The notes beneath the pieces are model-generated. The model searched no databases, was not told the DNA's origin, and saw only the letters and a program-made list of their open reading frames with translations. From Patescibacteria group bacterium (GTDB taxonomy: Bacteria; Patescibacteriota; Patescibacteriia; UBA2591; UBA4787): a DNA stretch of 64,000 bases. The stretch covers positions 191,067 to 255,066 of the forward strand of contig JAQUSN010000001.1 of NCBI GenBank assembly GCA_028715115.1, read 5' to 3'. A program made the position numbers and the translations under genes. Below are positions 11,783 to 56,680 of this stretch, in pieces. The stretch's first letter is position 1. Every line of letters begins with the position of its first letter.

Positions 11783-11995
11783 TTGGGCGAATAATTTTTT
11801 GTTTAAAAATATTTATAGTAAATTGGGAATATGCAAAAAGTAACCCTTCAGGCGCAGACTGTTCGGGGGGGGGTATTTTAGCTCTATTTAGTCCCCAGGT
11901 CTGTCGGCAGGCCTGGGGACGTTGAAGCTAAAATAAAACGGGAGTCGGCGACGAGCGCCTTCTCCCGCGTAGTTCCTCCATGGACTTCTTGTTTG

Positions 11996-13036
11996 TTATC
12001 CTCCCTGTCGATCCTTGCGCAACGCCAGGGCCAGCTTCGCGATACACTCAACGGCCTCTTCGCTTAGCGTGCCCGGATTACCGACCTGTTCCAGTTCTTC
12101 GCGTAGATCGGCGATGACGAGCTGGCGCACGGCCGGGCCTTCTGTTTCGGCTACGTGCACTTCTGCAGCGCGCGCTGTCTCTCTTCGTGCCTGGACCGAC
12201 GATGCTCCTCTCTTGCCTCCGCGATTCTTAGTCGAAACGCCGGCAAGATGACCCCGCCCTCCACCATTACTGCGCCATTCTTTCTCTGGTAGGAGGCTTT
12301 GGTCAACATCCACCAGTAACGAATCTGTAACGACGCCGAGTGCTGAGGCCATGCGCTGAATGGTCTCTATTGACGGCAGGGTGCCCGACTTCTTGAAGCT
12401 GACCCAGGCTGACTGAGGCCGGGCGGCATCGGGAGATATCGCCCTACCTATTACCAGGAGAGTGATCCCTTTTTCTGTCTTGGCCTCTTCGACGTTTCGG
12501 AGAAGCGCCTTCTTTGATTTCGCCTCTCCTTCTTGCGGTTTACGGGGCATAGAGCCCTTCCTTTCGATTGATACCCTTCTTGCCTTGGTGGTCTTTGCTC
12601 TTGTGTTCGGCCTTGTGTTGGCCGCCTTCACTGTTACTGTTTGTGGGTCAGGCGGATCAGCGGCGGTAGCCGTTGGCTTTGGGTTGGTTGCATCATCTTC
12701 TTGGGCTGGCGTAGTCTTTTTGGGGTCGTGCCCATTGTGCATTATAGCGCTCGGACTAATGCCCAAGCGCTGGCAACAGGCGAGAATCTGGTTGCTGGTT
12801 AATAGGTTCCAGGCAGTATCTCTGAGCCAGCTGTGCCAGACTTCAATCGGCCTGTCAGTCCTGGGGCTAACGATAAGTCCCATGGCCGCTTCGCCATACA
12901 TTCGCCGTTCAGCGGCGTCCAAAGCGATGGCTTCTCTCTCTACTCGCGCTGCTTCAAGCCTTCTGGCCACTAGCAGTTTTTGCGCTGTTCCGTCGTGGTT
13001 ATGATGGCCCGCCGCTTCTATTGGGGCCACACTCAT
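11996..13036 (-). CDS. GC-rich islet A: 346-aa protein with a central XRE/Cro-type helix-turn-helix segment
   Basis: Clean ORF at about 58% GC in a 35% GC backbone. The segment ...SAWVSFKKSGTLPSIETIQRMASALGVVTDSLL fits the XRE HTH pattern. It has a strong SD (AAAGGAGGTGTT-ATG) and a TTGACA promoter at 13092-13120. The function of the N- and C-terminal domains is unknown. Confidence 0.6.
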   Translation of the reverse strand: MSVAPIEAAGHHNHDGTAQKLLVARRLEAARVEREAIALDAAERRMYGEAAMGLIVSPRTDRPIEVWHSWLRDTAWNLLTSNQILACCQRLGISPSAIMHNGHDPKKTTPAQEDDATNPKPTATAADPPDPQTVTVKAANTRPNTRAKTTKARRVSIERKGSMPRKPQEGEAKSKKALLRNVEEAKTEKGITLLVIGRAISPDAARPQSAWVSFKKSGTLPSIETIQRMASALGVVTDSLLVDVDQSLLPEKEWRSNGGGRGHLAGVSTKNRGGKRGASSVQARRETARAAEVHVAETEGPAVRQLVIADLREELEQVGNPGTLSEEAVECIAKLALALRKDRQGG

Positions 13037-13091
13037 AACACCTCCTTTCTAAACAGACTTAGTCTTCAATGGAATTCCGAGTTATAAATAT

Positions 13092-18550: not shown

Positions 18551-18576
18551 ATACCTAAGTCTAAATGGAGGAACCA

Positions 18577-19236
18577 ATGACTTTTCGACAGTTTGTTTGT
18601 CGGGCTTCACAGATGACCACAGCGGAGAGGGGCGTCTACTTTCTTTCGCTAAGAGCTGATCTTTTCTGGGATGTTGAGCTGAGCCCAGCCCAACGCGCTG
18701 AAACCCTGCTTTGGTTAGAGAGCCATAGATACGGGTTTGTTCGGGGTCAACCGAGGGTCTTAACTCGAGTTCCTTCCCGGGAACAATCGGAGAAGAGGTG
18801 GCGACGAGAGCGACGCCGGCTGATTATGGCCAGTAGGCCGTATTATCGGTTTTGTTGTCCGTTTTGCCGGACCAAAATCATCGTGCGGCATGAACTTTGT
18901 GCTGGCGACCGGGTCAGATGTCGGAGTTGCGGCGAAGAATCGCAATATCTACATTCTGGCATCCGGCCTGGCACGGTCTTCGGCTCACTGGTTTTTACTG
19001 ATGACGGATCTTTCCGTTGTCCGGTTTGCGCCGAGTTGACGCCAAGCCAGCGCGACAAAAAACACAAAGAGGCAATCGTCTGTAGCTTCTGTAAGTCAGA
19101 GTTCACTAAACACGTGGATTCCCCTGAAGTGGCCAACGGACGAGATCCTCACGGCGTGATCTTTGTGCTTGCCGGCCCGATATTTCATCACCTTCTCGTG
19201 ATGCAAACTCCGCCCGCCCTGTCGGTTCAGCAATGA
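18577..19236 (+). CDS. GC-rich islet B: Cys-rich protein with four CxxC pairs (two predicted zinc ribbons)
   Basis: CPFC...CRSC...CPVC...CSFC motifs at about 56% GC. GGAGG lies 5 nt before the ATG at 18577; the track start at 18565 (the ATG inside ATGGAGG) is unlikely. No recognisable family. Confidence 0.55.
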   Translation: MTFRQFVCRASQMTTAERGVYFLSLRADLFWDVELSPAQRAETLLWLESHRYGFVRGQPRVLTRVPSREQSEKRWRRERRRLIMASRPYYRFCCPFCRTKIIVRHELCAGDRVRCRSCGEESQYLHSGIRPGTVFGSLVFTDDGSFRCPVCAELTPSQRDKKHKEAIVCSFCKSEFTKHVDSPEVANGRDPHGVIFVLAGPIFHHLLVMQTPPALSVQQ

Positions 19237-19264
19237 CCCGCTCGGCGGGCCATTGCTTTTAAAG

Positions 19265-19296
19265 AAAAAGACGGAATTAATGTCCGTCTTTTTCTT
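19265..19296. terminator. Bidirectional intrinsic terminator between the islet-B gene and recA
   Basis: aaaaagacgga-attaatg-tccgtcttttt hairpin with U-runs on both strands. Confidence 0.7.
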
Positions 19297-19319
19297 AATG
19301 TCATAAAGGACATTTCGAC

Positions 19320-23594: not shown

Positions 23595-23641
23595 AAATTA
23601 TGAAACAAAATTTAAGTAGTAATAGTATAACATAAAAATAC

Positions 23642-23674
23642 AAAAAAAGAAGAGCCCACCCCGAAGGGTGGGCT
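23642..23674 (-). terminator. Terminator of the islet-C gene
   Basis: agcccaccc-cgaa-gggtgggct hairpin followed by a U-run on the minus strand. Confidence 0.7.
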
Positions 23675-23690
23675 TGATTGACGAAGTGGA

Positions 23691-24266
23691 CTAGGAGACT
23701 TCTGCTTTCTCGGTTTGCCTGAGACCGAGAACCAGCGCCCAGACACCCAGGACGGGCAGGTAGACCCTAGCTATCCAGTCGAAGACGGCTGTGGCGTTCT
23801 CTATTTTGCCAATGGTATCTGTGAGCTTGGACAGCCAGAGCATCAGGATGATCACGCATAGGCCGACGGTCAGGATCAGTCCGAGAGCCTTCTTTTCGCC
23901 CAGGTAGAAACGGACGGCGACGAAGAAGATGGCGACGATCATGGCCGGTTCGATCCAGATGAGCGAAGCGGTGAGCTCGGATGATGGGTAGAGCATGAGG
24001 CCCAGGCCCAGGTAGAACCAGAAAGCGCAGAACATGCCGATCAGGATGCTGGCCGGCGTGTCTTTGGCCTTGAACACGGTGTAGCCGAGTCCCGCCAGAT
24101 GAAACAGGCCGCCGAACAGGATCAGTGACAGTCCGGTCGGGCCGTTCGGCATCATGCCGAATTTGCCCAGGATCGGTTGCCACTTGATGCCGGAGTAGAG
24201 CGCGCAGAGCAGGAAAATGCTCAACAGCACGAATCCGACTGACGAGAACCTCTTTTTGTCATCCAT
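23691..24266 (-). CDS. GC-rich islet C: polytopic membrane protein (about 6 TM), unknown function
   Basis: 191 aa at about 56% GC with GGAGGcaaaATG. The promoter is TTGACA-16-TAAAAT at 24332-24359 on the minus strand. Confidence 0.55.
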   Translation of the reverse strand: MDDKKRFSSVGFVLLSIFLLCALYSGIKWQPILGKFGMMPNGPTGLSLILFGGLFHLAGLGYTVFKAKDTPASILIGMFCAFWFYLGLGLMLYPSSELTASLIWIEPAMIVAIFFVAVRFYLGEKKALGLILTVGLCVIILMLWLSKLTDTIGKIENATAVFDWIARVYLPVLGVWALVLGLRQTEKAEVS

Positions 24267-24331
24267 TTTGCCTCCTTGTGGTTAAAGGGACGACCTTCGA
24301 ATTATACGGATTTCTTTTAGAACTGATTTGA

Positions 24332-28674: not shown

Positions 28675-28701
28675 AAATTATCTATTATATAGCTAAAAAA
28701 T

Positions 28702-28729
28702 AACCCGCAGTTTGCGGGTTGTTTTTTTT
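28702..28729 (+). terminator. Terminator of the epimerase gene
   Basis: aacccgcag-ttt-gcgggtt followed by gttttttttatt. Confidence 0.75.
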
Positions 28730-28730
28730 A

Positions 28731-28758
28731 TTGACAACTATATTTAACGTTTTATAAT
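28731..28758 (+). promoter_or_regulatory. Promoter of the GC-rich element D (TTGACA-16-TATAAT)
   Basis: ttgacaactatatttaacgtttTATAAT. The predicted TSS is about 28766. Confidence 0.6.
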
Positions 28759-28765
28759 TTTAAAT

Positions 28766-29092
28766 ATAAACAACCCATGGAGGTGTCATATAGGCGCGAA
28801 AAGAGACTGCAGTATTTCCGTGGTAGTACCTCCGGACAAGGGACGTCTAAGTATAGACTCGAGACGTTCAAAACCATGTTGTTCTGCCATGGAGGCAGAG
28901 CTGAGACTTTTGCGGCCTCTTCGACAGGGCGCGGTATTGCGTCGTCCCGGCCACAACAATCTAATACCTGGTCGGCCTTGTCCCCACTGCGGAGCACTGA
29001 TTCAACTCCTCATGGAGTAAGTCCTGGGGCGGAGCCGTTTTGGCTCCGCCCTCTGTCATTACCAAGAACACAGAATTGACTTTCTGTCTTTT
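28766..29092 (+). other. GC-rich about 325-nt transcription unit D. Either a small-protein gene with an unresolved start (ORF-track candidates 28777..29079 or 28820..29020) or a structured ncRNA
   Basis: About 52% GC flanked by AT-rich DNA. A consensus promoter lies upstream. An internal GC hairpin sits at 29022-29047 and a terminator (acagaa-ttgact-ttctgt plus T7) at 29063-29092. Three overlapping ORFs with low-complexity translations. The ATGGAGG at 28777 has no canonical start 5-9 nt downstream. Confidence 0.35.
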
Positions 29093-29224
29093 TTTGTTAA
29101 AATAGTTTTAATAAAGACCTACCCGCCTATTGCCTATCCAGGAGTTAATTTTAAATAAGAATTGAAGAAAGAATATTTTTTAATTCTTAACTCGATGGGG
29201 CGGCGTTGGCAGGCGGGCCTGCTC

Positions 29225-29455
29225 GCCATTACTACGCTCAGTGGTAGAGCTCTTATATCGACAATTTTATTAATAGGCGTGCATAGCTCAGCGGCCTAAT
29301 CCAATTCTCTAAGAACTGGACGGCCCGTTCGAGTTTTTTTAAAACTCGAATTAGGGTAGAGCACGACTCTTATATCAATAAATTTTCAATATTTAGTGTC
29401 TTGAGTGCGCGTGTAGCTCAGTGGTAGAGCACCACTCTTATAGCGGTAGATTCCT
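29225..29455 (+). repeat. Three truncated or interrupted tRNA-Ile(UAU)-derived 5'-half copies (pseudo-tRNA fragments)
   Basis: 29232-29262 ctacGCTCAGTGGTAGAGCtCTTATAtcgac. 29276-29376 GGCGTGCATAGCTCAG[63-nt insert]GGTAGAGCACGACTCTTATATC. 29406-29449 GCGCGTGTAGCTCAGTGGTAGAGCACCACTCTTATAGcgg. All share the D-arm and anticodon-arm core of the intact tRNA at 29470. Confidence 0.6.
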
Positions 29456-29469
29456 ATTATTCTCTAAGT

Positions 29470-29541
29470 GGGCGCATAGCTCAGTGGTAGAGCACCACTC
29501 TTATAAAGTGGGGGTCGATGGTTCGAACCCATCTGCGCCCA
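29470..29541 (+). tRNA. tRNA-Ile (anticodon UAU, AUA-decoding type)
   Basis: GGGCGCA-TA-GCTCAGTGGTAGAGC-A-CCACT-CTTATAA-AGTGG-GGGTC-GATGGTTCGAACCCATC-TGCGCCC-A. The anticodon loop CUUAUAA carries U34-A35-U36. The acceptor stem is extended by flanking complementary ctctaagtg / cacttagag. Confidence 0.8.
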
Positions 29542-29618
29542 CTTAGAGAATAAAATAATGTTATCTACCGATATATAGGTCGCAACTTTATAAATTATTT
29601 TAATTGTAGCGACCAATA

Positions 29619-29656
29619 TAAAGTGGGGGCCTCTATTAGAACCCATCTGCGCCCAC
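29619..29656 (+). repeat. Truncated 3'-half copy of tRNA-Ile(UAU) with a replaced T-arm
   Basis: ATAAAGTGGGGGcctctattagAACCCATCTGCGCCCACTTA versus the intact ATAAAGTGGGGGTCGATGGTTCGAACCCATCTGCGCCCACTTAG. Confidence 0.6.
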
Positions 29657-29682
29657 TTATAAATTAATTATTGTTTTAAATT

Positions 29683-32161: not shown

Positions 32162-33493
32162 ATGGCAAATAATGAACCCACAATTTCACAAGCCATTGAT
32201 TTAATTTGTCAGGAAAAAAAGATTTCCCGCGATTTGGTTTTGTCGGCTATCGAGCAGGCCTTGGCCGCCGCTTACCGCCGCGATTATGGTGAAAAAAATC
32301 AAAACATCAAAGTTGAGTTTAACCCGATTGATGGATCAATGCGAGTTTTTGACGTTAAAACCGTAGTTGAAGATTTGCCACCCGAAGAACTGGCCGAAAA
32401 AGAAAACGAAGAAAAAGAGGCAGAAGAAATAAAAAAAACAAAAAAATCCAAAACCAAAAAAATCGAAGCTGAAGAGTCGGTGCCAGTTCAATCAGAAATT
32501 ACCGCCGAAGAAGACGAGGAAGAGAAAAAAAGATTTAACCCTAAAACAGACCTCCAACTATCAGATGCCAAAAAAATAAATAAAAAAATAAAAATTGGCG
32601 AAACCATTACCACTGAATTAAAAATGCCGACTGGATTTGGCCGCGTGGCCGCCCAAACCGCCAAACAGGTTATCGTGCAAAAAATACGTGAAGCCGAACG
32701 ACAAACGGTTTTTGACCGCTATAAAGCGCAAGAGGGCACGGTTATTAACGGTATTATCCAGCGTTATGAAAGAAATATGGTTTTAGTAGAGCTACAAGAC
32801 ACTACTGCGATTTTACCCGCCTCGGAACAGATTATAGAAGAGCGATATATGCCCAATCAAAAATTTAAATTTTATTTACAGGTCGTGCGTCAAACCCCCA
32901 AGGGCCCAGAAATTATCGTTTCGCGCCGACATCCAGAAATTTTAAAAGAATTATTCGTTCAAGAAATTCCAGAGATTACCAATGGCACGGTTGAAATAAA
33001 GGCTATTGCTCGCGAAGCTGGTTCGCGCGCCAAGGTAGCAGTTTTCACTCAAGAAAAGGGTGTTGATCCGGTTGGCGCTTGTATCGGCCAGCGAGGCGTA
33101 CGCATTCAAACAATCATCTCTGAATTAGGCGGTGAAAAAATTGACATTATCGAATGGAGCGAGGATTTGGCAAAATTTATTACTAACGCTTTATCGCCGG
33201 CCAAAGTTCAATCAATCGAAATTGACGAAAAAAACAAAAAAGCAATAGTTAGAGTAAAAGAAGAAAATCTATCTTTAGCTATCGGCCGCGCCGGACAAAA
33301 CGTGCGTTTGGCTTCTCGCTTAACAGGTTATGAAATAGATGTACAAGTAGCGCCGAAAGAAATTGAAAAAAGCGTAGCTCCAGAAGGAGAAGATGCGAAA
33401 GAAGTAACAGCGGTAGTCGATAATCCAGAAGAAAAAAAGGATTCAGCCGAACCGAAAAAAGAGAAAAAATCTCGCAAGAAAAAAACAGAATAA
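32162..33493 (+). CDS. nusA: Transcription termination/antitermination factor NusA
   Basis: N-terminal domain, S1 domain, and KH domains (GACIGQRGVRIQTIISELGGEKIDII; IGRAGQNVRLASRLTGYEIDV). Lys/Glu-rich low-complexity insertions are present. Confidence 0.85.
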   Translation: MANNEPTISQAIDLICQEKKISRDLVLSAIEQALAAAYRRDYGEKNQNIKVEFNPIDGSMRVFDVKTVVEDLPPEELAEKENEEKEAEEIKKTKKSKTKKIEAEESVPVQSEITAEEDEEEKKRFNPKTDLQLSDAKKINKKIKIGETITTELKMPTGFGRVAAQTAKQVIVQKIREAERQTVFDRYKAQEGTVINGIIQRYERNMVLVELQDTTAILPASEQIIEERYMPNQKFKFYLQVVRQTPKGPEIIVSRRHPEILKELFVQEIPEITNGTVEIKAIAREAGSRAKVAVFTQEKGVDPVGACIGQRGVRIQTIISELGGEKIDIIEWSEDLAKFITNALSPAKVQSIEIDEKNKKAIVRVKEENLSLAIGRAGQNVRLASRLTGYEIDVQVAPKEIEKSVAPEGEDAKEVTAVVDNPEEKKDSAEPKKEKKSRKKKTE

Positions 33494-33510
33494 AATATTT
33501 TAAAAAAGAA

Positions 33511-33535
33511 TCGCAGCGGGGCAATGCCCCGCTGC
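33511..33535. terminator. Hairpin terminator shared by nusA (+) and the islet-E gene (-)
   Basis: cgcagcggggc-aat-gccccgctgcg, an 11-bp GC stem. There is a U-run on the minus strand and a weaker one on the plus strand. Confidence 0.65.
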
Positions 33536-33545
33536 GTTAAGGTTT

Positions 33546-33803
33546 CTACGTGTGAAGACCGATTGCCTTCTTCTTGAATCGACTTGGCGGCACAAGTTCG
33601 CAGGCCCCGAGGATAACGAACCCGGTCACGATGGCCCCGAAAAAGGCCTTGAGCAAGCGGATTACGACCAGGGCTGTTGTCTGATAGGCGACTGGTGATT
33701 GCCCGAGAAGGGGCACCTTTTTGATGAACATGGCCGAGACCAGCCAGCCAAGCAGTAAGGCTATCGTCAGCACGATTAGCCAGTAGAAAATCAGTCTCTT
33801 CAT
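33546..33803 (-). CDS. GC-rich islet E: small membrane protein (2-3 TM)
   Basis: 85 aa. ATGGAGGatgagATG places the SD 5 nt before the ATG at 33803 (the track start at 33815 is unlikely). A TTGACA promoter lies at about 33850-33880 on the minus strand. Confidence 0.5.
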   Translation of the reverse strand: MKRLIFYWLIVLTIALLLGWLVSAMFIKKVPLLGQSPVAYQTTALVVIRLLKAFFGAIVTGFVILGACELVPPSRFKKKAIGLHT

Positions 33804-33909
33804 CTCATCCTCCATCGGTTGATATTATCAAGTTTAATTATTTTTTTTGTTTTTGTCAAGATGATTTTCCTTGTCAAAATAAATATTTTATGTTAAGTTA
33901 AAATAACTT

Positions 33910-47297: not shown

Positions 47298-47343
47298 ATA
47301 GAATAATCCCAATTTCGTCACTTTGAAAGGAGGTGATATTTCA

Positions 47344-47694
47344 ATGAATGACAGAGTAAATCCGAAGATTAAGCAGTTCCTTCAGAGGTACTTCGGTGGG
47401 ACCGACCTGGCCTCGATCATGACATTCCTGGATAAGGGCTTCAGTCTCAACGGCCAGGTAGTCGTTTCCACCATCTTCGTCTCTGCCCAAGAGTGCAGAG
47501 TCCCCGTGACTCGTGTTTTGGCAGAATGCGAGAAAGAGTGGGACAGGAACTGGAACTTCCAACACCCAGAACTCAGAGGAAACCCCGATGCTCCCGGTGG
47601 CGCTGGTATGCAGAACAGGGCTTCCCTCGAAAAGATCTATACCGCTCTCGGTATACCAAGTCCGAGAGAAGGGCGGGCCAGGAAAAGGGTCTGA
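47344..47694 (+). CDS. GC-rich islet J1: 116-aa soluble protein of unknown function
   Basis: AAAGGAGGTGA SD 7 nt before the ATG at 47344; the track start at 47323 is a TTG inside the SD region. About 53% GC. A terminator (tcggggctgcc-gtag-gcagccccga plus U-run) follows at 47722-47755. Confidence 0.55.
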   Translation: MNDRVNPKIKQFLQRYFGGTDLASIMTFLDKGFSLNGQVVVSTIFVSAQECRVPVTRVLAECEKEWDRNWNFQHPELRGNPDAPGGAGMQNRASLEKIYTALGIPSPREGRARKRV

Positions 47695-47848
47695 GCCCGA
47701 GACTCGCTGTTTCGCAAATCGTCGGGGCTGCCGTAGGCAGCCCCGACTTCTTTATTTAATGAAAGGGCCCAGCTTATTCAGCTAGGGCCCTTCTCTTATA
47801 TGCACGATGTGCATGATACCTCCCCTTGATTGTTAGTGGAGCGCGTTG

Positions 47849-48484
47849 TTATCGAAGCTCCACGGAAGCCACTCTGACTGCGGCGATGAGCAGCCACAGC
47901 ATGAACCACCCTATCTCTTTAAGCAGTCGTTGATTCATCCGAAGATAGAGCGTTCTTAACCACTGCTTGTGCTCCATGCCAACAAACCCAACCGGTTTGG
48001 TGACCAAGAAGCGTTTTTCTTTGCCCATCATTCCAAACAGCACGAACGTCTCGCGACGGAAGGGGCTGAGCCACGAGATTCCGATGTTGAACTCTTTGCC
48101 CTGCTGATCGTACTCACCAAGGCTGTCTTTTCCGAAGTGGAGTAGAGACCCCGCTGCGAACGTTAATGGCCAAATCAATGGCCAGCGCAACAGCAAGGCC
48201 AGTGCAAACCAGACGGTGAGGGCAATGCCGAAATAGAAGGGTTGGTGCAGTATGGTCCGATGATGACCGCGTGAATTGCCCCTTATTTTGGCATCGACGA
48301 CCTTCAGTACGATGTCGAGATCCGGCAGCAACGCAAAGAGAATCGCTGCCGAATAGATCCATGGCCAGTGCTGTCGGAAATAGTGGTCATCGATTGTACC
48401 AAGAGCAGTGCCAATCATCAGACCGCTGCCGATGTCGGCAGTAGCAGCCAGAACGTCACCGAATAAGAGTTTAATTCTGTCCAA
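47849..48484 (-). CDS. GC-rich islet J2: YdjM/DUF457-like membrane-bound metal-dependent hydrolase
   Basis: LLPDLDIVLK...RGHHRTILHQPF aligns with YdjM LLPDIDHPKS...HRGFTHSLL. Multiple TM segments; about 57% GC. Confidence 0.45.
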   Translation of the reverse strand: MDRIKLLFGDVLAATADIGSGLMIGTALGTIDDHYFRQHWPWIYSAAILFALLPDLDIVLKVVDAKIRGNSRGHHRTILHQPFYFGIALTVWFALALLLRWPLIWPLTFAAGSLLHFGKDSLGEYDQQGKEFNIGISWLSPFRRETFVLFGMMGKEKRFLVTKPVGFVGMEHKQWLRTLYLRMNQRLLKEIGWFMLWLLIAAVRVASVELR

Positions 48485-48584
48485 TTTCTCCCGCCTTTCT
48501 GTTTACCATTCGGTCTTCAATCAGTGTTATATCATATAATTTCACATTTTTGCCTTTTTGTCAAGATTATATAATTTTTTGTAA

Positions 48585-48617
48585 AAAGAATAGCGGGTGA
48601 GTATAGGAGCTCACCCG
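48585..48617 (-). terminator. Terminator of islet gene J3
   Basis: agcgggtgag-tataggag-ctcacccgct plus a U-run on the minus strand. Confidence 0.6.
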
Positions 48618-49003
48618 CTCAGAGACAAACTTCGATTGGATTGGACCTTCTCTTGCCAGTATCCCATCAACGAGAGAGCGTAGCCGAAGGCTACATAGCC
48701 AGCGACCAGCACGACGAGCATCACTGGCGAGAAAATGAGTTTCGGCCAGAGATATAGCGCGGCAAATCCGCTCAGAAGTATTCCTGACAGTATGACACCC
48801 GCGGCGAAAGAACCCTTACCCCTTCTCACCGACCCTAGCATAAGGCCGGTGACCATAATGAAGTGTGGAAGGAAACGGGCTATCATCTCTGCGTTGAAAT
48901 TGTGCCGAAGCGTGCCGCTGTTTATCACGGCATAGCCTCCCAGCAACCATGCCGCAACATAAGCAGCCATCAGGAAGGCACATCGGAGTACGTGTCGTAT
49001 CAT
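48611..49003 (-). CDS. GC-rich islet J3: 130-aa four-TM membrane protein
   Basis: About 58% GC. Promoter module cTTGACAaaaggtcaaaaatat at 49040-49075 on the minus strand. Confidence 0.5.
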   Translation of the reverse strand: MIRHVLRCAFLMAAYVAAWLLGGYAVINSGTLRHNFNAEMIARFLPHFIMVTGLMLGSVRRGKGSFAAGVILSGILLSGFAALYLWPKLIFSPVMLVVLVAGYVAFGYALSLMGYWQEKVQSNRSLSLSG

Positions 49004-49124
49004 GCAATCCTCCAGTTTTTAGATCTTAACCATTATTCTATATTTTTGACCTTTTGTCAAGATCATATTTTTAATTATTTTTCTTGCTATTAAAATTTTA
49101 ATATCGTTCTATATAGCCTAAGAT

Positions 49125-49163
49125 TAAAAACAAAGAGGACCTTGATCGAAGATCAAGGTCCGT
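49125..49163 (-). terminator. Terminator of islet gene J4
   Basis: Perfect ggaccttgatc-gaa-gatcaaggtcc hairpin plus a U-run on the minus strand. Confidence 0.65.
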
Positions 49164-49206
49164 CTCGCATGTTCACGTTGCCTCCTTTCTAGGCGTTTGC
49201 CTAGTC

Positions 49207-49407
49207 TTACGACTGCGCTGATTCCTTCTGTTTCTTTTCTTTGCCCGCTTCGACGGCATCCGATATGATCGCCACAATAGCGGAGCAGGAGAGGAGAACC
49301 ATCGTCATCACGAGCATTCGTTGAACGAATGTCGGGAAAGAGATGATCGTGATGATCGCCGCCCCGACAAACCACAGTCTGCCGAACAGATAGAGAGGGT
49401 TATGCAT
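49207..49407 (-). CDS. GC-rich islet J4: 66-aa two-TM membrane peptide
   Basis: GGAGatattATG. Promoter cTTGACAaaaaggcaaaaatatgcTAAGAT at about 49430-49465 on the minus strand. Confidence 0.5.
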   Translation of the reverse strand: MHNPLYLFGRLWFVGAAIITIISFPTFVQRMLVMTMVLLSCSAIVAIISDAVEAGKEKKQKESAQS

Positions 49408-49551
49408 AATATCTCCTTAGTTGTATTAATATCTTAGCATATTTTTGCCTTTTTGTCAATCCTTATTTTTTTAGAAAGTGAGGGGGGTTAAGATAAGATT
49501 TTTTGTAAATTTAATGGAGCGGACTTGCAGTCCGCTCCACTTGGTAGGCAG

Positions 49552-49746
49552 TCATTCCTCCTCGATCCAGACCTGGGTATCGGCCCTGGCGACGCCTATC
49601 GTGAGGTGTCCCAGATTGCCCTGCTCGTCAACTGATGTTGCTGATCCGGATTCCCCTTTCAGGAAGCGTACCTGCTTTCCTTCCCACTCCATCCAGAAGA
49701 ACCTTCCTGCTGGCACAGAGTCCCAATAAGTCTGTCGTTTATTCAT
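49552..49746 (-). CDS. GC-rich islet J5: 64-aa soluble protein
   Basis: aaaGGAGtgctcATG start at 49746 (the track start is a GTG at 49752). Terminator hairpin at 49513-49539. Promoter TTGACA-17-AATAAT at about 49765-49795 on the minus strand. Confidence 0.45.
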   Translation of the reverse strand: MNKRQTYWDSVPAGRFFWMEWEGKQVRFLKGESGSATSVDEQGNLGHLTIGVARADTQVWIEEE

Positions 49747-49835
49747 GAGCACTCCTTTGTCTTTATTATTTCATATTTTTTTGAATTTGTCAATGGTTAT
49801 AATTTTATAATTTATAAGCAAAAGCGGCATTTTTT

Positions 49836-50044
49836 GTAAATAAAGCGGGGGCGGAGAGCCCGCCCCCTTGGGTTCAAACGTGATCTTGGCCGGACGACTT
49901 CTTCTAGGCCGTATTCACGCTTGACGCCCTGAACCGATTTACCATGTATCCTCCATTGGCCTCGAAGAGGCCACTTTGGTACTGGATGGCCCTTGAGCCC
50001 GCAATTGGACAGATCGTCCTTAATTGAAGGGCTCATCAACCATC
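49836..50044 (-). ncRNA. Candidate GC-rich small RNA J6 (about 210 nt), possibly dual-function with a 13-codon ORF
   Basis: Promoter TTGACG-16-TATAAT on the minus strand at 50051-50078. Terminator gggggcgg-agagc-ccgccccc plus U-run at 49847-49867. Internal hairpin GGCCUC-UU-GAGGCC. It contains an SD-ATG (AUGGAGGauacAUG) opening MVNRFRASSVNTA-stop. The track ORF 49812..50039 overlaps the terminator and looks spurious. Confidence 0.35.
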
Positions 50045-50128
50045 AGCTTTATTATAATATCACATTCAGTTTCGTCAACATCTTAGCTTGCAATAAAGTA
50101 ATGTTTTGTTAAAATATAAATTAATTAT

Positions 50129-50674
50129 ATGTCTAAAAAAATTATTTTACTCGTTGCTTTAGAAGAAGAATTCCCCAAAAAATTAGTTCCTAAGGGAGTT
50201 AACGTTTATTATACTCATTGCGGCAAGGTTAATGTAGCCATTGCGGCAACAAGGGCATTAAGCAAGATAAAAAGCAAAAATGTTTTAGTCGTTAATTATG
50301 GCACGGCCGGCTCGGCCAAACATAAAATAGGCGCACTCTTAAAGGTGACGCAATTCAGACAGGCGGATATTGATGCCAGTGGCCTTGGTTTTCCTAAAGG
50401 AGTGACGCCGCTCGATAAAAAGTTTTTTAAATTTAATACGGAAAAAATTAATTTTGGTCCTGGCGAGACTTGTTATACGGCCGATAATTTGCAAAATTTT
50501 CCGTTAGAAGATATGGAGTCATACTCGATTGCCAAAGTTTGTAAAATCTACGGCTTGAAATTTGTCAGCTATAAATTTATTACTAATAATTTTAATAAAA
50601 ATGCGGCTGCTGATTGGAAAAATAACGTTAAGAAAGGAGCTAAAATATTTTTAGATAAACTTTTAAAGTTATAA
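50129..50674 (+). CDS. Purine nucleoside phosphorylase family protein (MTA/SAH nucleosidase-like)
   Basis: 181 aa, PNP_UDP_1-like pattern (VNYGTAGS... central Gly-rich loop, C-terminal ...YESYSIAKVC). Native AT-rich composition; terminator at 50699-50730. Confidence 0.5.
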   Translation: MSKKIILLVALEEEFPKKLVPKGVNVYYTHCGKVNVAIAATRALSKIKSKNVLVVNYGTAGSAKHKIGALLKVTQFRQADIDASGLGFPKGVTPLDKKFFKFNTEKINFGPGETCYTADNLQNFPLEDMESYSIAKVCKIYGLKFVSYKFITNNFNKNAAADWKNNVKKGAKIFLDKLLKL

Positions 50675-50777
50675 TTATAAAAATACGATATTTAAAATTG
50701 AAAAGACGAGTTTTAAGCCCGTCTTTTTGATTAAGAAAAACGCTGACCCGAGAGAGCCAGCGTCGAGGCTGAGTCCG

Positions 50778-50936
50778 CTATGATTGTGTCATTATCGGCT
50801 TGTAGGCGTCGTGGATTTTGGAGCACGCCCAGTCGGTGAGAGAACTTGGCGTATAGAATACTCCATTGTCCTGGACGACCCGAATCATTGGCTTTTCATA
50901 GGGCTTCCTCTTCCTGAGTGGCAATGTACGTGACAT
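50778..50936 (-). CDS. GC-rich islet I1: 52-aa small protein (below the ORF-track size cutoff)
   Basis: Strong SD gAAAGGAGGcggcaATG. The ORF reads MSRTLPLRKRKPYEKPMIRVVQDNGVFYTPSSLTDWACSKIHDAYKPIMTQS. Promoter TTGACA-16-TAAAAT (-35 at 50995-51000, minus strand). Confidence 0.45.
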   Translation of the reverse strand: MSRTLPLRKRKPYEKPMIRVVQDNGVFYTPSSLTDWACSKIHDAYKPIMTQS

Positions 50937-51075
50937 TGCCGCCTCCTTTCCGAGGGATTAAACCTCATTATTATTTTAAAATTAATTTTATTTTTGTCAA
51001 CTCCACAAAATTTTAAAAAGTAAAAGGCTGTTGTTGATATTATCTCCAACAGCCCGTAGCACGAGCAGCTCGTCA

Positions 51076-51345
51076 TTAGTCTATGCCCGCCTCAGGGCCT
51101 CGCCAGGCCTTAGATATCTTCCTTCGCCGAATCCGACTTCGATCTTTCTTTTGCCTTTGCTGATGGTCGTCACGAGCAGGCGGTGTCCTCGACACTTTGG
51201 GTTAGCCACGGCTCTCATCAGGTATGTGCCGGGAGCAAGCCGACGACTCTTCCCTCATGAAGATCTTCCGGCTGAAAAGTCGAGCACGTCCAGGCACTGG
51301 CTGATTGTTAAGACGAATCTGTCTGGCTTCATGAAGCCTCCTTAT
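51076..51345 (-). pseudogene. GC-rich islet I2: ORF interrupted by an in-frame TGA after codon 25 (possible pseudogene, readthrough or recoding)
   Basis: AAGGAGGcttcATG (51343-51345). MKPDRFVLTISQCLDVLDFSAGRSS-TGA-GKSRRLAPGTYLMRAVANPKCRGHRLLVTTISKGKRKIEVGFGEGRYLRPGEALRRA in one frame. Terminator hairpin ggctgttg...caacagcc at 51026-51054. Confidence 0.3.
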
Positions 51346-51445
51346 GTTTTATTTTATTCTTATTTCCAAAAATGAAAAGGGCCTCAAATAAAATTATATC
51401 GGGCGGGAGCTGTGTGCTCCCGCCCGAAAGTTGTAGACTAGCTCA

Positions 51446-51754
51446 TCAGTACCAGGTGGGCCCTGGACGGAAGGCGATCTGTTCTATCCGCTGCTGTCGT
51501 TTTATTCTTTCGACTTCAGCGGCAGCGGCTACTCGCCGATTGGCACGCCATCTCCTCTTCCTGGCGGTTCTCAGAGTGTTCAGGCCCTTGTCTGCGGCCT
51601 TGGACCTTGAGTGTCTTCCTCCGGCGGGCCGTAACATGGTCACGACCTTGTCTTCTCTCGCCCCACACGTCGAACATGCGTTCGGCAACGATCCTTTGCC
51701 TGAGAAGGTCTTGGTGGTGCCGCAGTTTGTGCAGCGCTGAGTGTATCTTGCCAT
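51446..51754 (-). CDS. GC-rich islet I3: 102-aa basic zinc-ribbon protein (CxxC...CxxC)
   Basis: MARYTQRCTNCGTTKTF...ACSTCGARE, then an Arg/Lys-rich tail. AGGAGtactgATG. Promoter TTGACA-17-GATAAT at 51819-51847 on the minus strand. Terminator cgggcgggagc-tgtgt-gctcccgcccg at 51400-51426. Confidence 0.55.
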   Translation of the reverse strand: MARYTQRCTNCGTTKTFSGKGSLPNACSTCGAREDKVVTMLRPAGGRHSRSKAADKGLNTLRTARKRRWRANRRVAAAAEVERIKRQQRIEQIAFRPGPTWY

Positions 51755-51892
51755 CAGTACTCCTGTTTAGGTAATAGAATTCGAGAAATACGACCAGCCC
51801 CTCCATACAGATATAGTTATTATCTCAAAATTTTATCATTTTGTCAAGGCGGTATTTTTGACTTTTTTTTCCACCGGATTAAAATAAAAAGC

Positions 51893-53017: not shown

Positions 53018-53069
53018 GGGGCTTGACATTTTTCAAAATAAAGTAATAATATATCTGATTGGAGGTAAT

Positions 53070-53423
53070 GTGAATACATCTCGATTCAGAAAGCTGTTGG
53101 TTGGGGTCTGCGATAAGCTCGACCTACTGCCTCACGAATATCCGGACGTTGACGTGAGTTGTTGCCGCGGTCAAATTTCGGTACAGCTTACGGTGACGGA
53201 GCCGGACGACCGTTATCCAGGAGATGAGTTGGTGGTGCTTGACCCTGCTCGGCGAGCCGACGCTCCTGCTTACAGATTCTTTCGCGGTCACGGCGGCGAG
53301 GTACTCGGCTCGTTTATAAGAGCGGTGAGAGCGGCAACTCCGGGTGGCGTTCGAGTCCAGATTAAGGCGCGCTATGCGCGGCTGGGGGTCAGCTTAACCC
53401 GAAGATGCGTCGTTCAGTCCTGA
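53070..53423 (+). CDS. GC-rich islet F: 117-aa protein of unknown function (GTG start)
   Basis: About 62% GC. Promoter TTGACA-17-AATAAT at 53024-53052. GGAGG-taat-GTG. Terminator gaggcgaac-aaccg-gttcgcct plus U-run at 53444-53475. Confidence 0.45.
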   Translation: MNTSRFRKLLVGVCDKLDLLPHEYPDVDVSCCRGQISVQLTVTEPDDRYPGDELVVLDPARRADAPAYRFFRGHGGEVLGSFIRAVRAATPGGVRVQIKARYARLGVSLTRRCVVQS

Positions 53424-53499
53424 TCCAACAGAAGATCGAACGAAGAGGCGAACAACCGGTTCGCCTTTTCTTTTTCTATAAAAATGCTAAAATAGACTC

Positions 53500-54750
53500 A
53501 TGATTGTTCTCTCTTTGGTTTTAGCTGCAGTATTTTTATTAGCTACAATCCGCTGGCCCAGAGTCGCTCTTTTTTCGTTGCTTTTATTTTTACCGGCCTA
53601 TCAAATTAGGGTTGATTTTTTGGGTTTACCCACTACTGCCTTAGAGGTAATGATTTTGGCGTTTTATTTTGGCGTATTGATTGGTAATTTTAAAACATTC
53701 GGACAAATCAAAAAAATTTTTAGCGGTTGGTTGTGGGTGATTCCGGCTTGGCTCGGAGTTGGTTTTATCGCCGCTTTGGTTTCGCCTAATTTTACTCTTG
53801 GTCTGGGACATTGGCGGGCTTATTTTGTCGGACCGATTTTAGTTTTAATGGCTGTCGTTATTTTAATTCGGCGAGACGAAAAGTTAAAAGAATTAATTAT
53901 TCCGACCTTGGCTTTTTCGGCCTTGATTTGCGCTCTCTGGGCCGTGGCCCAGAAATTTTTCGGCGGCGGAGTAATGAGCACCGAAGTTTGGGGTGCGGCG
54001 AAAGTTTGGCGCGCGACCGGGCCGTTTCCGCAACCTAATTTTTTGGGATTATATTTAGCGCCCATTGCGGTTCTGGCTTTCGGGCAATTCATTATTTTAG
54101 TAAAAAAAATTGATAAAAAAATAATTTTTTATCTCGCGGTTTATGTTTTTTCTATCATCGCTCTACTCTTGGCTCGCAGTGAAGGCGGCCTCTTAGCCCT
54201 AGTCTTTGGTACGATTTTTTTATTAATACTTTATCGGCCCAGCAGAAGGGCGACGATAATTATTTTGATAATTTTATTTATTTTACTTGCTTTAATCCCA
54301 ACCTCTCGCCAGTATTTCGTTCAAAAAGCTTCGTTTAACGGCTTGTCAGAACAACTACGTTTAAATATTTGGCATGGCGCTGCCGATTTAATTAAAGCGC
54401 ATCCAATTTTTGGCGTTGGTTTGCGTGGTTATCAGCAATTAATTTCTCATTATCAAAAGCCGTATTATCAACCCGGGACCGATAAGGTTATTTCCGTTGA
54501 GACTCATCCTTATCCGCATAATTTATTTTTAGCGCTGTGGGCTGAAGCCGGCCTCTTGGGACTTATTGTTTTTTCGTTGATTGTTATTAAATTTTTCATT
54601 CAGGGTTTTAAGAAAAAATCAGTCTTTCATTTGACGCTTTTAGCGGCAATGTCGGCAATAATTATTCATGGCCTGGTTGACACTCCTTATTTTAAAAATG
54701 ATTTATCAGTTTTATTTTGGTTTTTAATCTCAATGATGATTTGTTTCTAA
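53500..54750 (+). CDS. O-antigen ligase-like (Wzy_C domain) polytopic membrane protein
   Basis: 416 aa, about 11 TM with a central periplasmic loop containing conserved Arg/His (…ARSEGGLLAL…). The mRNA is leaderless-like (TGcTAAAAT 6 nt before the ATG). Confidence 0.45.
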   Translation: MIVLSLVLAAVFLLATIRWPRVALFSLLLFLPAYQIRVDFLGLPTTALEVMILAFYFGVLIGNFKTFGQIKKIFSGWLWVIPAWLGVGFIAALVSPNFTLGLGHWRAYFVGPILVLMAVVILIRRDEKLKELIIPTLAFSALICALWAVAQKFFGGGVMSTEVWGAAKVWRATGPFPQPNFLGLYLAPIAVLAFGQFIILVKKIDKKIIFYLAVYVFSIIALLLARSEGGLLALVFGTIFLLILYRPSRRATIIILIILFILLALIPTSRQYFVQKASFNGLSEQLRLNIWHGAADLIKAHPIFGVGLRGYQQLISHYQKPYYQPGTDKVISVETHPYPHNLFLALWAEAGLLGLIVFSLIVIKFFIQGFKKKSVFHLTLLAAMSAIIIHGLVDTPYFKNDLSVLFWFLISMMICF

Positions 54751-54813
54751 AAACAAAGACCTCTGCTCGGGGATAAAACCCAAGACAGAGGTGGGGGTCA
54801 AGGAGTCGGGGAA

Positions 54814-55020
54814 CTATGCAGCACTCAGCCTTTCGCGCAGTTCGTCGGCTTTGGATTTGAACCACTTCGACCCTGTTAGCCAGGCCAGTGCCGCCAGGAT
54901 TGCCCACCAGAGGTATGCGGCGATGACTACGACCAGGCTGAGAACCATGACCATGAGGAATACTACAAGGAACGATGACCATGGCGTTGTTCGCTGCTGT
55001 GTGCGATAGGTTGTTGTCAT
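54814..55020 (-). CDS. GC-rich islet G: 68-aa single/double-TM membrane peptide
   Basis: ATGGAGGctacATG start at 55020. Promoter TTGACA-16-TATAAT at 55049-55076 on the minus strand. Terminator about 54760-54800. Confidence 0.5.
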   Translation of the reverse strand: MTTTYRTQQRTTPWSSFLVVFLMVMVLSLVVVIAAYLWWAILAALAWLTGSKWFKSKADELRERLSAA

Positions 55021-55183
55021 GTAGCCTCCATTACTTTACATTTTTATAATTATACATTTTTAAGCCTTATTGTCAAGATTGTCTTATCCGCCAGCTGGCG
55101 GACTATAGGGTGGCTGAGTGCCTGTCCGCCAACCGGCGGAGTCGAAGCTGTTTTATAACAAAATGAAGTGACCTTACTAGGGC

Positions 55184-55270: not shown

Positions 55271-55285
55271 TTTTGGTAGGGTTTT

Positions 55286-55440
55286 CCGCGTCATTTGATG
55301 CGGCACCCTATTGGTCGCGAGTTCTGAGCCCTAGGCTCATCTCAGCCCAAGGCTGATGAGCCTAGGGCTCACGCCTCGGGCGGAGAATCCCTGCCTACCG
55401 CCTGCCTAACGGCAGTCAGGGCAGGCAGGTCGCCCCCACC
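55286..55440. repeat. GC-rich block of nested palindromes downstream of tRNA-Ser (about 20-bp near-perfect hairpin at 55325-55371 plus CTGCC/GGCAGG repeats)
   Basis: tgagccctaggctcatc / gatgagcctagggctca gives 17-bp perfect arms around tcagcccaaggct. This is followed by ccctgcctaccgcctgcctaacggcagtcagggcaggcagg. Confidence 0.5.
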
Positions 55441-55451
55441 GCCAGAAAATT

Positions 55452-56584: not shown

Positions 56585-56680
56585 TAAAATATTGTAAGTG
56601 TTCTCAGTTGACAAGTTATTTAATCATAATCATCAACGAGATAGGTCGTCTTACAATGTTAATTTCATTATCTTATTCAT

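What the first reader, a model, noticed from the sequence alone, without database searches (positions are those of the whole stretch)
28731..29092. GC-rich 325-nt unit D: coding or structured RNA is undecidable by eye
A consensus promoter and terminator flank a 52%-GC segment. All three forward or reverse frames are open for 60-100 codons with low-complexity translations. The SD-like ATGGAGG at 28777 is not followed by a usable start codon at proper spacing. There is a strong internal GC hairpin (gggcggagcc-gtttt-ggctccgccc). I compared it with RNase P RNA (P4/CR-I/CR-V), tmRNA (tRNA-like 3' end, tag ORF), SRP RNA (GGAA tetraloop helix) and 6S, and found no convincing match.
Basis: seen in the sequence. 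Interest (0 to 1): 0.5.

Follow-up and report, generated by a model that had tools for sequence, protein, structure and literature searches.

The report
Orphan GC-rich mini-gene cassette without start
This 360-base GC-rich stretch is a real promoter-to-terminator unit that matches no known RNA or protein family; it is most likely one of this bacterium's many private mini-gene cassettes, in a copy that lacks a normal start codon, so it is real but fairly ordinary.

Summary
There is a perfect sigma-70 promoter (28731-28758), a 52-54% GC body in a 40% GC Patescibacteria genome, an 11-bp GC hairpin (29026-29052) and a hairpin plus U7 terminator (29070-29095).

No Rfam family matches, even at E<=10. 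ARAGORN finds no tmRNA. Neither long plus-strand frame has a homologue among billions of proteins. Syntenic relatives carry a different cassette in this slot, so no covariation or codon-substitution test was possible.

The window holds about 14 GC-rich orphan cassettes of the same design: consensus promoter, ATGGAGG-type ribosome-binding site, short ORF, GC hairpin. At least one is visibly broken by an in-frame TGA.

Unit D fits that design. GGAGGUG lies 21 nt after the -10 box. A 76-codon frame then runs from AUA (28790) to UAA (29018-29020), 5 nt before the hairpin, and contains a CPHCG zinc knuckle.

Codon bias, period-3 signal and AlphaFold confidence are all weak. Predicted folding (z = -3.5) is stronger than in 17 coding controls.

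Best reading (0.45): an mRNA-type cassette whose ORF is startless or only weakly AUA-initiated. Main rival (0.33): a species-specific sRNA.

The nested tRNA-Ile(UAU) genes just downstream are more interesting than unit D.

The parts
28702..28720 (.). Bidirectional terminator hairpin of the upstream epimerase gene; left boundary of the unit
   Evidence: terminator-like site; sequence
28731..28758 (+). Sigma-70-type promoter TTGACA-16 nt-TATAAT. The transcription start is inferred at about 28765.
   Evidence: 12/12; one of four perfect sites in the window. The others drive a tRNA-Gly gene (24404), a 68-aa membrane-protein cassette (55076, minus strand) and, apparently, the GTG-start ORF beginning at 56598 (56557).
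28779..28785 (+). Shine-Dalgarno-like GGAGGUG inside the recurrent ATGGAGG motif, 21 nt after the -10 box
   Evidence: The same ATGGAGG motif precedes the ATG of the cassettes at 18567, 33813(-), 49954(-) and 55029(-).
28790..29020 (+). Frame f0: 76 codons from ATA (6 nt after the SD) to TAA 29018-29020. Contains CPHCG and is Arg/Pro/Leu/Cys-rich. Proposed (former) coding frame.
   Evidence: No homologue. Weak Zn-ribbon Pfam hits below cut-off.
28777..29079 (+). 100-codon ATG ORF (frame f2). It has no SD and runs through the terminator hairpin. Gene callers picked it in the Logan assemblies.
   Evidence: (only itself in 5.8 billion proteins)
28755..28997 (-). 81-codon GTG ORF on the opposite strand, with GAGGAG 8 nt upstream. 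It has no promoter of its own.
   Evidence: best but marginal codon score, +0.04; no minus-strand promoter nearby
28881..28901 (+). 8-bp hairpin GUUCUGCC-AUGGA-GGCAGAGC, presenting an in-frame AUG and GGAGG
   Evidence: pairing probability 0.96; z = -3.1
29026..29052 (+). 11-bp GC hairpin starting 5 nt after the f0 stop. It is the same GGGCGG-type terminator as in other cassettes.
29070..29095 (+). Second hairpin ACAGAA/UUCUGU followed by U7: an intrinsic terminator
29076..29103 (+). Next promoter (TTGACT-16-TAAAAT with TG), overlapping the terminator loop. It serves the tRNA-Ile region and is not part of unit D.
   Evidence: 10/12

Best explanation
Unit D is a self-contained mRNA-type cassette. 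It belongs to a population of GC-rich, species-private mini-genes in this Patescibacteria genome.

How it would work:
- A consensus promoter fires at about 28765.
- The short AT-rich leader presents a strong ribosome-binding site (GGAGGUG).
- A 76-codon frame (28790-29020) follows, encoding a Cys/Arg-rich peptide with one CPHCG zinc knuckle.
- That frame ends 5 nt before a GC hairpin terminator.

The frame begins with AUA instead of AUG/GUG/UUG. The gene is therefore either a recently inactivated copy that lost its start codon (about 0.33) or is translated only weakly from AUA (about 0.12).

Shown: the promoter, SD, open frame, terminators, absence of homologues, and the existence of sister cassettes.
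Inferred: transcription, the reading frame, and the decay scenario.
For: 1. Layout. The order of -10 box, about 20 nt, ATGGAGG, then a start 4-6 nt later is the layout of bona fide cassettes at 18567, 33813(-), 49013(-), 53061 and 55029(-). In unit D the corresponding position is ATA 28790.
2. Frame span. Frame f0 is open from that ATA to TAA 29018-20, directly before the terminator hairpin. I estimate by hand about a 5% chance of a 76-codon open run in one given frame at this composition.
3. Stop pattern. Eight of the 10 plus-strand stop triplets fall in one frame (binomial P about 0.01, my calculation). The pattern 'frame 0 open, +1 stop-rich, +2 open' matches most of the real GC-rich genes if f0 is frame 0. 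Overall openness gives P = 0.002 against shuffles, as in the genes 47344-47694 and 51446-51754.
4. Zinc knuckle. CPHCG lies in f0, and other cassettes encode Zn-ribbon proteins.
5. Terminator. The hairpin is of the same GGGCGG type as in the cassettes at 49847 and 51399.
6. Broken sisters. The cassette at 51332-51040(-) is an 83-codon frame with a single in-frame TGA. The one at 49954(-) keeps only 13 codons.
7. Orphan status is normal here. Sister cassette proteins are also singletons, mostly without families.
8. Variable slot. Relatives carry an unrelated mini-ORF cassette after the epimerase gene.
Against: - There is no canonical start codon. AUA initiation is very inefficient in the bacteria where it has been studied (general knowledge).
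- No significant period-3 composition: chi-square p = 0.21, whereas 9 of 13 real cassettes reach p < 0.05.
- Codon log-odds for f0 are negative (-0.13 and -0.05). f0 ranks only third and then second of the six frames, whereas true frames rank first in 11 of 13 genes.
- AlphaFold single-sequence pLDDT is 49.7 for f0, against 73.7 for a real orphan cassette protein.
- There is only one CxxC knuckle, so no complete Zn ribbon.
- No homologue of f0 exists in 1.84 billion representative proteins.
- Predicted RNA folding is stronger (z = -3.5) than in all 17 coding control windows, whose minimum is -2.76.
- The CPHCG and stop-pattern arguments are post hoc.
Confidence: 0.45

Rival explanations
1. Unit D is a species-specific, structured, trans-acting small RNA of about 300-330 nt. 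It would be made from its own strong promoter and ended by tandem terminators. It might act by base pairing, for example through the exposed ACCUCC or GGAGG motifs, or by binding a protein.
For: - Perfect promoter and terminator with no canonical ORF start.
- GC-rich like the tRNAs in an AT-rich genome.
- The plus strand folds better than shuffles (z = -3.5 to -3.6), better than the minus strand (-2.5 to -3.0) and better than all 17 coding controls.
- High-probability helices, including a long-range closing stem with G-U pairs.
- No coding signal by codon usage, period-3 or AlphaFold.
- A comparable ORF-less GC-rich unit exists in relative L004, with z = -3.9.
Against: - No Rfam match and no homologue, so no covariation is available.
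- Much of the fold signal comes from the terminator hairpins: the core has z = -2.7 and the 5' 75 nt has z = -0.3.
- The SD-like 5' end, the stop depletion, and a frame that spans exactly from SD to terminator are unexpected for an sRNA.
- GGA motifs are not enriched (7 against 4.8 +/- 1.9).
- No special complementarity to the neighbouring tRNA region.
Confidence: 0.33
2. The 81-codon GTG ORF on the minus strand (28997 to 28755) is the real gene, and the plus-strand signals are incidental.
For: - GAGGAG lies 8 nt before the GTG.
- It has the best codon score of the six frames (+0.04).
- Its amino-acid composition is balanced.
- The bidirectional hairpin at 28702-28720 can terminate it.
Against: - There is no promoter on the minus strand within 600 nt, in a genome whose promoters are near-consensus.
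- The ORF runs into the plus-strand promoter.
- The score of +0.04 is at the bottom of the range for real genes.
- No Pfam, PHROG or NCBIfam hit.
- It was not called as a gene in any public assembly.
Confidence: 0.06
3. The 100-codon ATG ORF (28777-29079) that gene callers picked is a genuine protein gene.
For: It is the longest ORF, it has an ATG start, and it was called in two Logan assemblies.
Against: - No SD. The ATG lies about 12 nt from the inferred transcription start and inside the SD motif itself.
- It runs through the GC hairpin into the second terminator.
- Its GC-by-position pattern (0.48/0.61/0.51) is that of an off-frame.
- Negative codon score.
- Only itself among 5.8 billion proteins.
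- NCBI annotation of the MAG does not call it.
Confidence: 0.04
4. Unit D is a highly divergent member of a known catalytic or housekeeping RNA class, such as a group I intron remnant or an RNase P-like RNA, that covariance models miss.
For: Patescibacteria carry divergent group I introns that RF00028 fails to detect (PMC13011429). Unit D lies next to a heavily rearranged tRNA locus.
Against: - No Rfam hit of any kind at E<=10 in a 341-nt search.
- It starts at a promoter and is not flanked by exon halves.
- It is absent from relatives that have the same tRNA locus.
Confidence: 0.03

Closest known systems
The GC-rich orphan mini-gene cassettes of the same window (e.g. 51446-51754(-) Zn-ribbon protein, 54814-55020(-), 53070-53423, 49552-49746(-))
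   Same: Near-consensus promoter with a 16-nt spacer, ATGGAGG/GGAGG ribosome-binding site about 20 nt downstream, 50-120-codon GC-rich body, GC hairpin terminator (three of them GGGCGG-type), and no homologues elsewhere.
   Different: Unit D has ATA where the others have ATG or GTG. It also lacks their codon and period-3 signal and their AlphaFold confidence.
Defective sister cassettes 51332-51040(-) and 50070-49850(-)
   Same: The promoter, SD and terminator are kept while the ORF is interrupted (in-frame TGA) or reduced to 13 codons.
   Different: The lesion in unit D is at the start codon, and the rest of the frame is still open.
Promoter-to-terminator trans-acting bacterial sRNAs
   Same: Own promoter, intrinsic terminator, stable predicted hairpins, no canonical ORF.
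   Different: At about 300-330 nt it is longer than most. It carries a strong SD at its 5' end and a frame that exactly fills the unit. No conservation is available to show selection on structure.
Genes with non-AUG/GUG/UUG starts such as infC (AUU) (general knowledge)
   Same: A strong SD followed by an AUH codon at the correct spacing.
   Different: AUA, not AUU. There is no evidence of translation and no conservation.
RNase P RNA, tmRNA, SRP RNA, 6S RNA, group I introns
   Same: Size range and GC-richness relative to the genome.
   Different: No covariance-model match, no tRNA-like end or tag ORF, no flanking exons.

Membership tests
Bacterial RNase P RNA | Match to RF00010/RF00011, including the P4 pseudoknot with CR-I/CR-V | tested here: not met
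   No hit at gathering score or at E<=10
tmRNA | tRNA-like acceptor/T-arm domain plus a tag-peptide ORF | tested here: not met
   ARAGORN finds tRNAs only; no Rfam hit
SRP RNA / 6S RNA | Covariance-model match (domain IV motif; long irregular hairpin with central bubble) | tested here: not met
   No hit at E<=10
Group I intron | Catalytic core detectable by RF00028 | tested here: not met
   No hit at E<=10
Group I intron | [quoted passage not shown] | not testable with these tools
   The model is not available here; PMC13011429 says RF00028 misses some of these introns
Group I intron | Insertion inside a gene, with exon halves on both sides | tested here: not met
   Unit D begins at a promoter and follows a terminator; there is no tRNA half on its 5' side
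CsrB/RsmZ-type protein-sponge RNA | Many GGA motifs presented in hairpin loops | tested here: not met
   7 GGA against 4.8 +/- 1.9 expected; only one (28891) lies in a hairpin loop
Protein-coding gene | SD followed by ATG/GTG/TTG at 3-10 nt | tested here: not met
   Only ATA at +6
Protein-coding gene | Open frame spanning from the start region to the terminator | tested here: met
   f0 28790-29020
Protein-coding gene | Codon-usage and period-3 signal | tested here: inconclusive
   f0 scores -0.13 and -0.05 per codon; chi-square p = 0.21. However, 2-4 of the 13 real cassettes score equally poorly
Protein-coding gene | Conserved homologues with synonymous-substitution bias | not testable with these tools
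   No homologue found. The four assemblies of the same species are identical over 28690-29470
Zinc-ribbon mini-protein | Two CxxC/CPxCG knuckles and a profile match above cut-off | tested here: not met
   One CPHCG only. Pfam Zn-ribbon hits of 14-16 bits fall below cut-offs of 24-29. pLDDT 49.7
Structured sRNA | Own promoter and intrinsic terminator | tested here: met
Structured sRNA | Folding energy beyond composition and beyond local coding controls | tested here: inconclusive
   z = -3.5 against controls of +1.15 to -2.76, but -2.7 without the last terminator
Structured sRNA | Covariation supporting the helices | not testable with these tools
   No homologous sequence was retrieved

The most novel reading that the evidence does not exclude
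Unit D is the founding member of a new, lineage-restricted structured RNA of Patescibacteria. It would be about 300 nt long, with a long-range closing stem, a multi-hairpin core and exposed SD and anti-SD-like motifs. It would be expressed from one of the strongest promoters in the region and sits next to the rearranging tRNA-Ile(UAU) locus.
Probability: 0.3. Interest if true: 0.4.

Novelty: new member of a known kind. Interest (0 to 1): 0.25.

Why it matters
On its own it matters little: it is a private, possibly decaying expression cassette.

It is useful as a caution. In this AT-rich Patescibacteria genome, 'GC-rich plus promoter plus terminator' does not single out structured RNAs, because the genome is peppered with GC-rich orphan mini-genes of the same design, some intact and some broken.

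If the cassettes are a turnover pool of small Cys/Arg-rich and membrane peptides sitting next to tRNA genes, they may be relevant to how these epibiotic bacteria vary their surface or defence repertoire.

The neighbouring nested tRNA-Ile(UAU) genes deserve their own study.

Tried and rejected
Searches with no result for unit D:
- Rfam at gathering score and at E<=10, on 64 kb, 1.1 kb and 341 nt: nothing.
- ARAGORN tmRNA search: nothing.
- Protein searches with the 100-aa frame and the 76-codon frame: no homologue.
- Pfam, PHROGs and NCBIfam on all candidate frames: only sub-threshold Zn-ribbon noise.
- BLASTN against phage and plasmid collections: chance matches in the AT-rich promoter only.
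- nhmmer, blastn and tblastn of unit D against 12 loci from syntenic relatives: nothing.
- Exact unit D 21- and 23-mers in viral contigs: nothing.

Attempts to reach relatives:
- The closest relative (epimerase 86% identical, with an 870-nt gene-free gap after it) has no retrievable DNA.
- An exact-protein look-up with L27 returned only the same organism.
- I spent both genome-contig scans and the single metagenome-contig scan on patterns anchored in the neighbouring tRNA-Ile nest, hoping to fetch relatives. The results were 0, 0 and one already-known contig.

Other tests that led nowhere:
- Alignment to the ORF-less GC-rich unit of L004: no homology.
- Complementarity of unit D to the tRNA nest: no better than shuffles.
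- CsrB-like GGA enrichment: none.
- Testing whether the GC-rich islands are phage-derived: no viral relatives of two island proteins.

Full report
**What is there.** The window comes from a Patescibacteria (CPR) metagenome-assembled genome; the same sequence is in GCA_028713815.1 and in two Logan assemblies. Between the stop of an NAD-dependent epimerase gene (28674) and a cluster of tRNA-Ile sequences lies the flagged unit. Its parts, in order:
- a bidirectional terminator of the epimerase gene (28702-28720);
- a 12/12 sigma-70 promoter, TTGACA-16-TATAAT (28731-28758), one of only four perfect sites in 64 kb;
- a short AT-rich leader;
- a body of 52-54% GC in a 40% GC genome;
- an 11-bp GC hairpin (29026-29052);
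- a second hairpin followed by U7 (29070-29095).

The next promoter (29076-29103) overlaps that terminator. The stop-free runs are 84/31/103 codons on the plus strand and 44/71/81 on the minus strand.

**Known RNA families.** cmscan against all 4227 Rfam families finds only tRNAs in the window. Nothing overlaps unit D even at E<=10, in searches of 1.1 kb and of 341 nt. ARAGORN finds no tmRNA. RNase P RNA, tmRNA, SRP RNA, 6S RNA and canonical group I introns are thus excluded as far as covariance models can see. A 2026 paper reports that some Patescibacteria tRNA group I introns escape RF00028 (PMC13011429). However, unit D starts at a promoter, has no exon halves around it, and is missing from relatives that share the tRNA locus.

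**Homologues.** The 100-codon ATG ORF (28777-29079) matches only itself among 5.8 billion proteins. The 76-codon frame f0 (28790-29017) has no word-sharing candidate. It has no hit in an exhaustive HMMER scan of 1.84 billion cluster representatives, no viral relative and no PDB relative. No frame reaches a Pfam, PHROG or NCBIfam threshold.

Syntenic contigs from relatives, with epimerase 74-79% identical (L004-L012), keep the order L27-NifU-123aa-glycosyltransferase-epimerase. They contain nothing similar to unit D within 10 kb. In that slot they instead carry an unrelated cassette on the opposite strand. It consists of a promoter, a covarying hairpin, CCAAGAGC, an SD, an ORF of 11-16 codons rich in Trp and Arg, and a terminator.

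The closest relative (86% identical epimerase) has an 870-nt gene-free gap after the epimerase, but its DNA could not be fetched. The window and three other assemblies of the same species are identical across the unit. No covariation or substitution-pattern test was therefore possible.

**Context changes the prior.** The window contains many GC-rich islands (52-58% GC). Reading them showed that most are small, self-contained genes. Each has a near-consensus promoter with a 16-nt spacer, a GGAGG site (often ATGGAGG) about 20 nt downstream, a start codon 4-6 nt later, 50-350 codons, and a GC hairpin terminator.

Thirteen such genes served as internal controls. Those I checked are as orphan as unit D: singleton clusters, and only one of ten reaches a Pfam cut-off (YdjM). 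At least two cassettes are defective. The cassette at 51332-51040(-) is an 83-codon frame broken by one in-frame TGA. The cassette at 49954(-) keeps only 13 codons behind an intact promoter, SD and terminator.

Unit D has the same design:
- GGAGGUG begins 21 nt after the -10 box.
- The position where the others have ATG or GTG is ATA (28790).
- From that codon a frame stays open for 76 codons and stops at TAA 29018-29020, 5 nt before the hairpin.
- The hairpin (GGGCGGAGCC...) is of the same type as the terminators at 49847 and 51399.

**Intrinsic tests give a split result.**

In favour of a coding origin:
- Stop triplets are depleted (18 against 26 expected on both strands; openness P = 0.002-0.004 against dinucleotide shuffles).
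- Eight of the 10 plus-strand stops fall in a single frame (my binomial estimate, P about 0.01).
- The pattern 'frame 0 open, +1 stop-rich, +2 open' is the one shown by most of the real cassettes if f0 is frame 0.
- f0 contains a canonical CPHCG zinc knuckle, and two sister cassettes encode Zn-ribbon proteins. This last point is post hoc.

Against a functional protein:
- A codon log-odds model trained on the 13 cassettes ranks the true frame first in 11 of 13, but gives f0 -0.13 per codon. With a model trained only on soluble proteins it gives -0.05, and the best frame is then the antisense 81-codon ORF at only +0.04.
- Period-3 composition is not significant (p = 0.21, against p < 0.05 in 9 of 13 controls).
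- AlphaFold in single-sequence mode gives pLDDT 49.7 for f0, against 73.7 for a real orphan cassette protein.

In favour of an RNA:
- The plus strand folds with z = -3.5 to -3.6. That is better than the minus strand and beyond all 17 coding control windows (+1.15 to -2.76).
- However, the terminator hairpins supply much of this signal: the core has z = -2.7 and the 5' 75 nt has z = -0.3.

**Verdict on mechanism.** I consider it most likely (0.45) that unit D is an mRNA-type member of this cassette population whose reading frame f0 has lost its canonical start. The change would be ATG to ATA, a single transition in an AT-biased genome. Alternatively, f0 may be translated only at a low level from AUA. 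The weak coding statistics are compatible with a short Arg/Cys-rich peptide (two similar real cassettes score as poorly) or with early decay.

The main rival (0.33) is a species-specific sRNA. In practice a startless but strongly transcribed cassette would be an RNA in the cell, so the two readings shade into each other. The minus-strand ORF (0.06) lacks any promoter. The 100-codon ORF (0.04) lacks an SD and runs through the terminator. A cryptic known ribozyme is unlikely (0.03).

**Novelty.** This is not a new kind of element. It is an orphan, apparently species-private unit in a hypervariable slot, and I score its interest as low to moderate.

**Seen on the way.** Immediately downstream (29233-29656), and in relatives L004 and L010, tRNA-Ile(UAU) genes are nested like Russian dolls. 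An intact tRNA, flanked by an inverted repeat, sits in the anticodon loop (after CUUAUA) of an outer tRNA-Ile(UAU). The outer gene also carries a structured D-loop insertion. After in-silico removal of the insertions, ARAGORN recognises the outer genes of L004 and L010 as tRNA-Ile(tat). The window has three stacked 5' halves and one degenerate 3' half. A quick full-text search turned up no description of such nested tRNA genes. This is probably the most interesting feature of the locus.

Noticed in passing
window 29233-29656; L004 minus strand about 1440-1725; L010 about 237-535: Nested ('Russian-doll') tRNA-Ile(UAU) genes. An intact tRNA (window 29470-29542), flanked by an inverted repeat, lies inside the anticodon loop (after CTTATA, with a TATA-like direct repeat at both junctions) of an outer tRNA-Ile(UAU). 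The outer gene also has a structured D-loop insertion (about 59-65 nt in L004 and in the window copy, about 25 nt in L010), and in L010 a T-loop insertion. The window has three stacked 5' halves (29233-29257, 29277-29374, 29407-29442) and one degenerate 3' half (about 29621-29655). After in-silico splicing, ARAGORN calls the outer genes of L004 and L010 tRNA-Ile(tat). The cause could be a self-targeting tRNA-carrying insertion element or an unrecognised intron or split-tRNA system. No group I intron signal was found in Rfam.
   Followed up: partly
window 11810-13086, 18551-19304, 23616-24316, 33485-33826, 47339-51814, 53053-53494, 54731-55050: About 14 GC-rich (52-58%) islands in a 40% GC genome. 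Each is a self-contained cassette of consensus promoter, GGAGG, small ORF (Zn-ribbon, Arg-rich or membrane peptides) and GC hairpin. Nearly all lack homologues or families. Several lie next to tRNA genes.
   Followed up: partly
window 51332-51040 (minus strand): A cassette whose 83-codon frame is interrupted by a single in-frame TGA (MKPDRF...GRSS*GKSRRL...). It is either a pseudogene or a read-through/recoding candidate. The neighbouring cassette at 50070-49850(-) keeps only a 13-codon ORF but folds with z = -3.6.
   Followed up: partly
L004 10978-11218, L007 10951-11150, L010 3537-3750, L012 3637-4040 (all minus strand): Relatives carry a conserved small unit after the epimerase gene: a promoter, a 5' hairpin with compensatory changes, CCAAGAGC, an SD, and an ORF of 11-16 codons rich in Trp and Arg (e.g. 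MIWRRWWMLCL), followed by a terminator. It is duplicated in L012 and absent from the window. It could be a type I toxin-like or leader-peptide element. No Rfam match at gathering score.
   Followed up: partly
L004 2288-2525 (minus strand): Another perfect-promoter, roughly 210-nt GC-rich, terminator-bounded unit with no real ORF (z = -3.9). It lies upstream of the tRNA-Ile nest in a relative and is not homologous to unit D.
   Followed up: partly
window 55272-55450: A very GC-rich (61%) stretch of long, near-perfect hairpins directly after tRNA-Ser(CGA). Its fold z-score is -7.9, by far the strongest structure signal in the window.
   Followed up: no
window 29470-29542: Isoleucine AUA codons appear to be read by a tRNA with a UAU anticodon, rather than by the usual lysidine-modified CAU tRNA. 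The same tRNA is found in L004 and L010.
   Followed up: no
L007 7510-7584 and L008 5806-5880: ARAGORN reports a tRNA with a two-base anticodon ('tg'; Rfam tRNA score of only 37.7 bits for the L007 copy) immediately upstream of tRNA-Ile(GAT).
   Followed up: no
window 29620-29660 versus L001 10740-10790: The window and the NCBI MAG contig are identical across unit D and the 5' tRNA halves, but they differ at about 5 of 36 positions in the degenerate 3' tRNA half. Several metagenome contigs also end at this tRNA. The locus is repeat-prone and may be partly mis-assembled.
   Followed up: no
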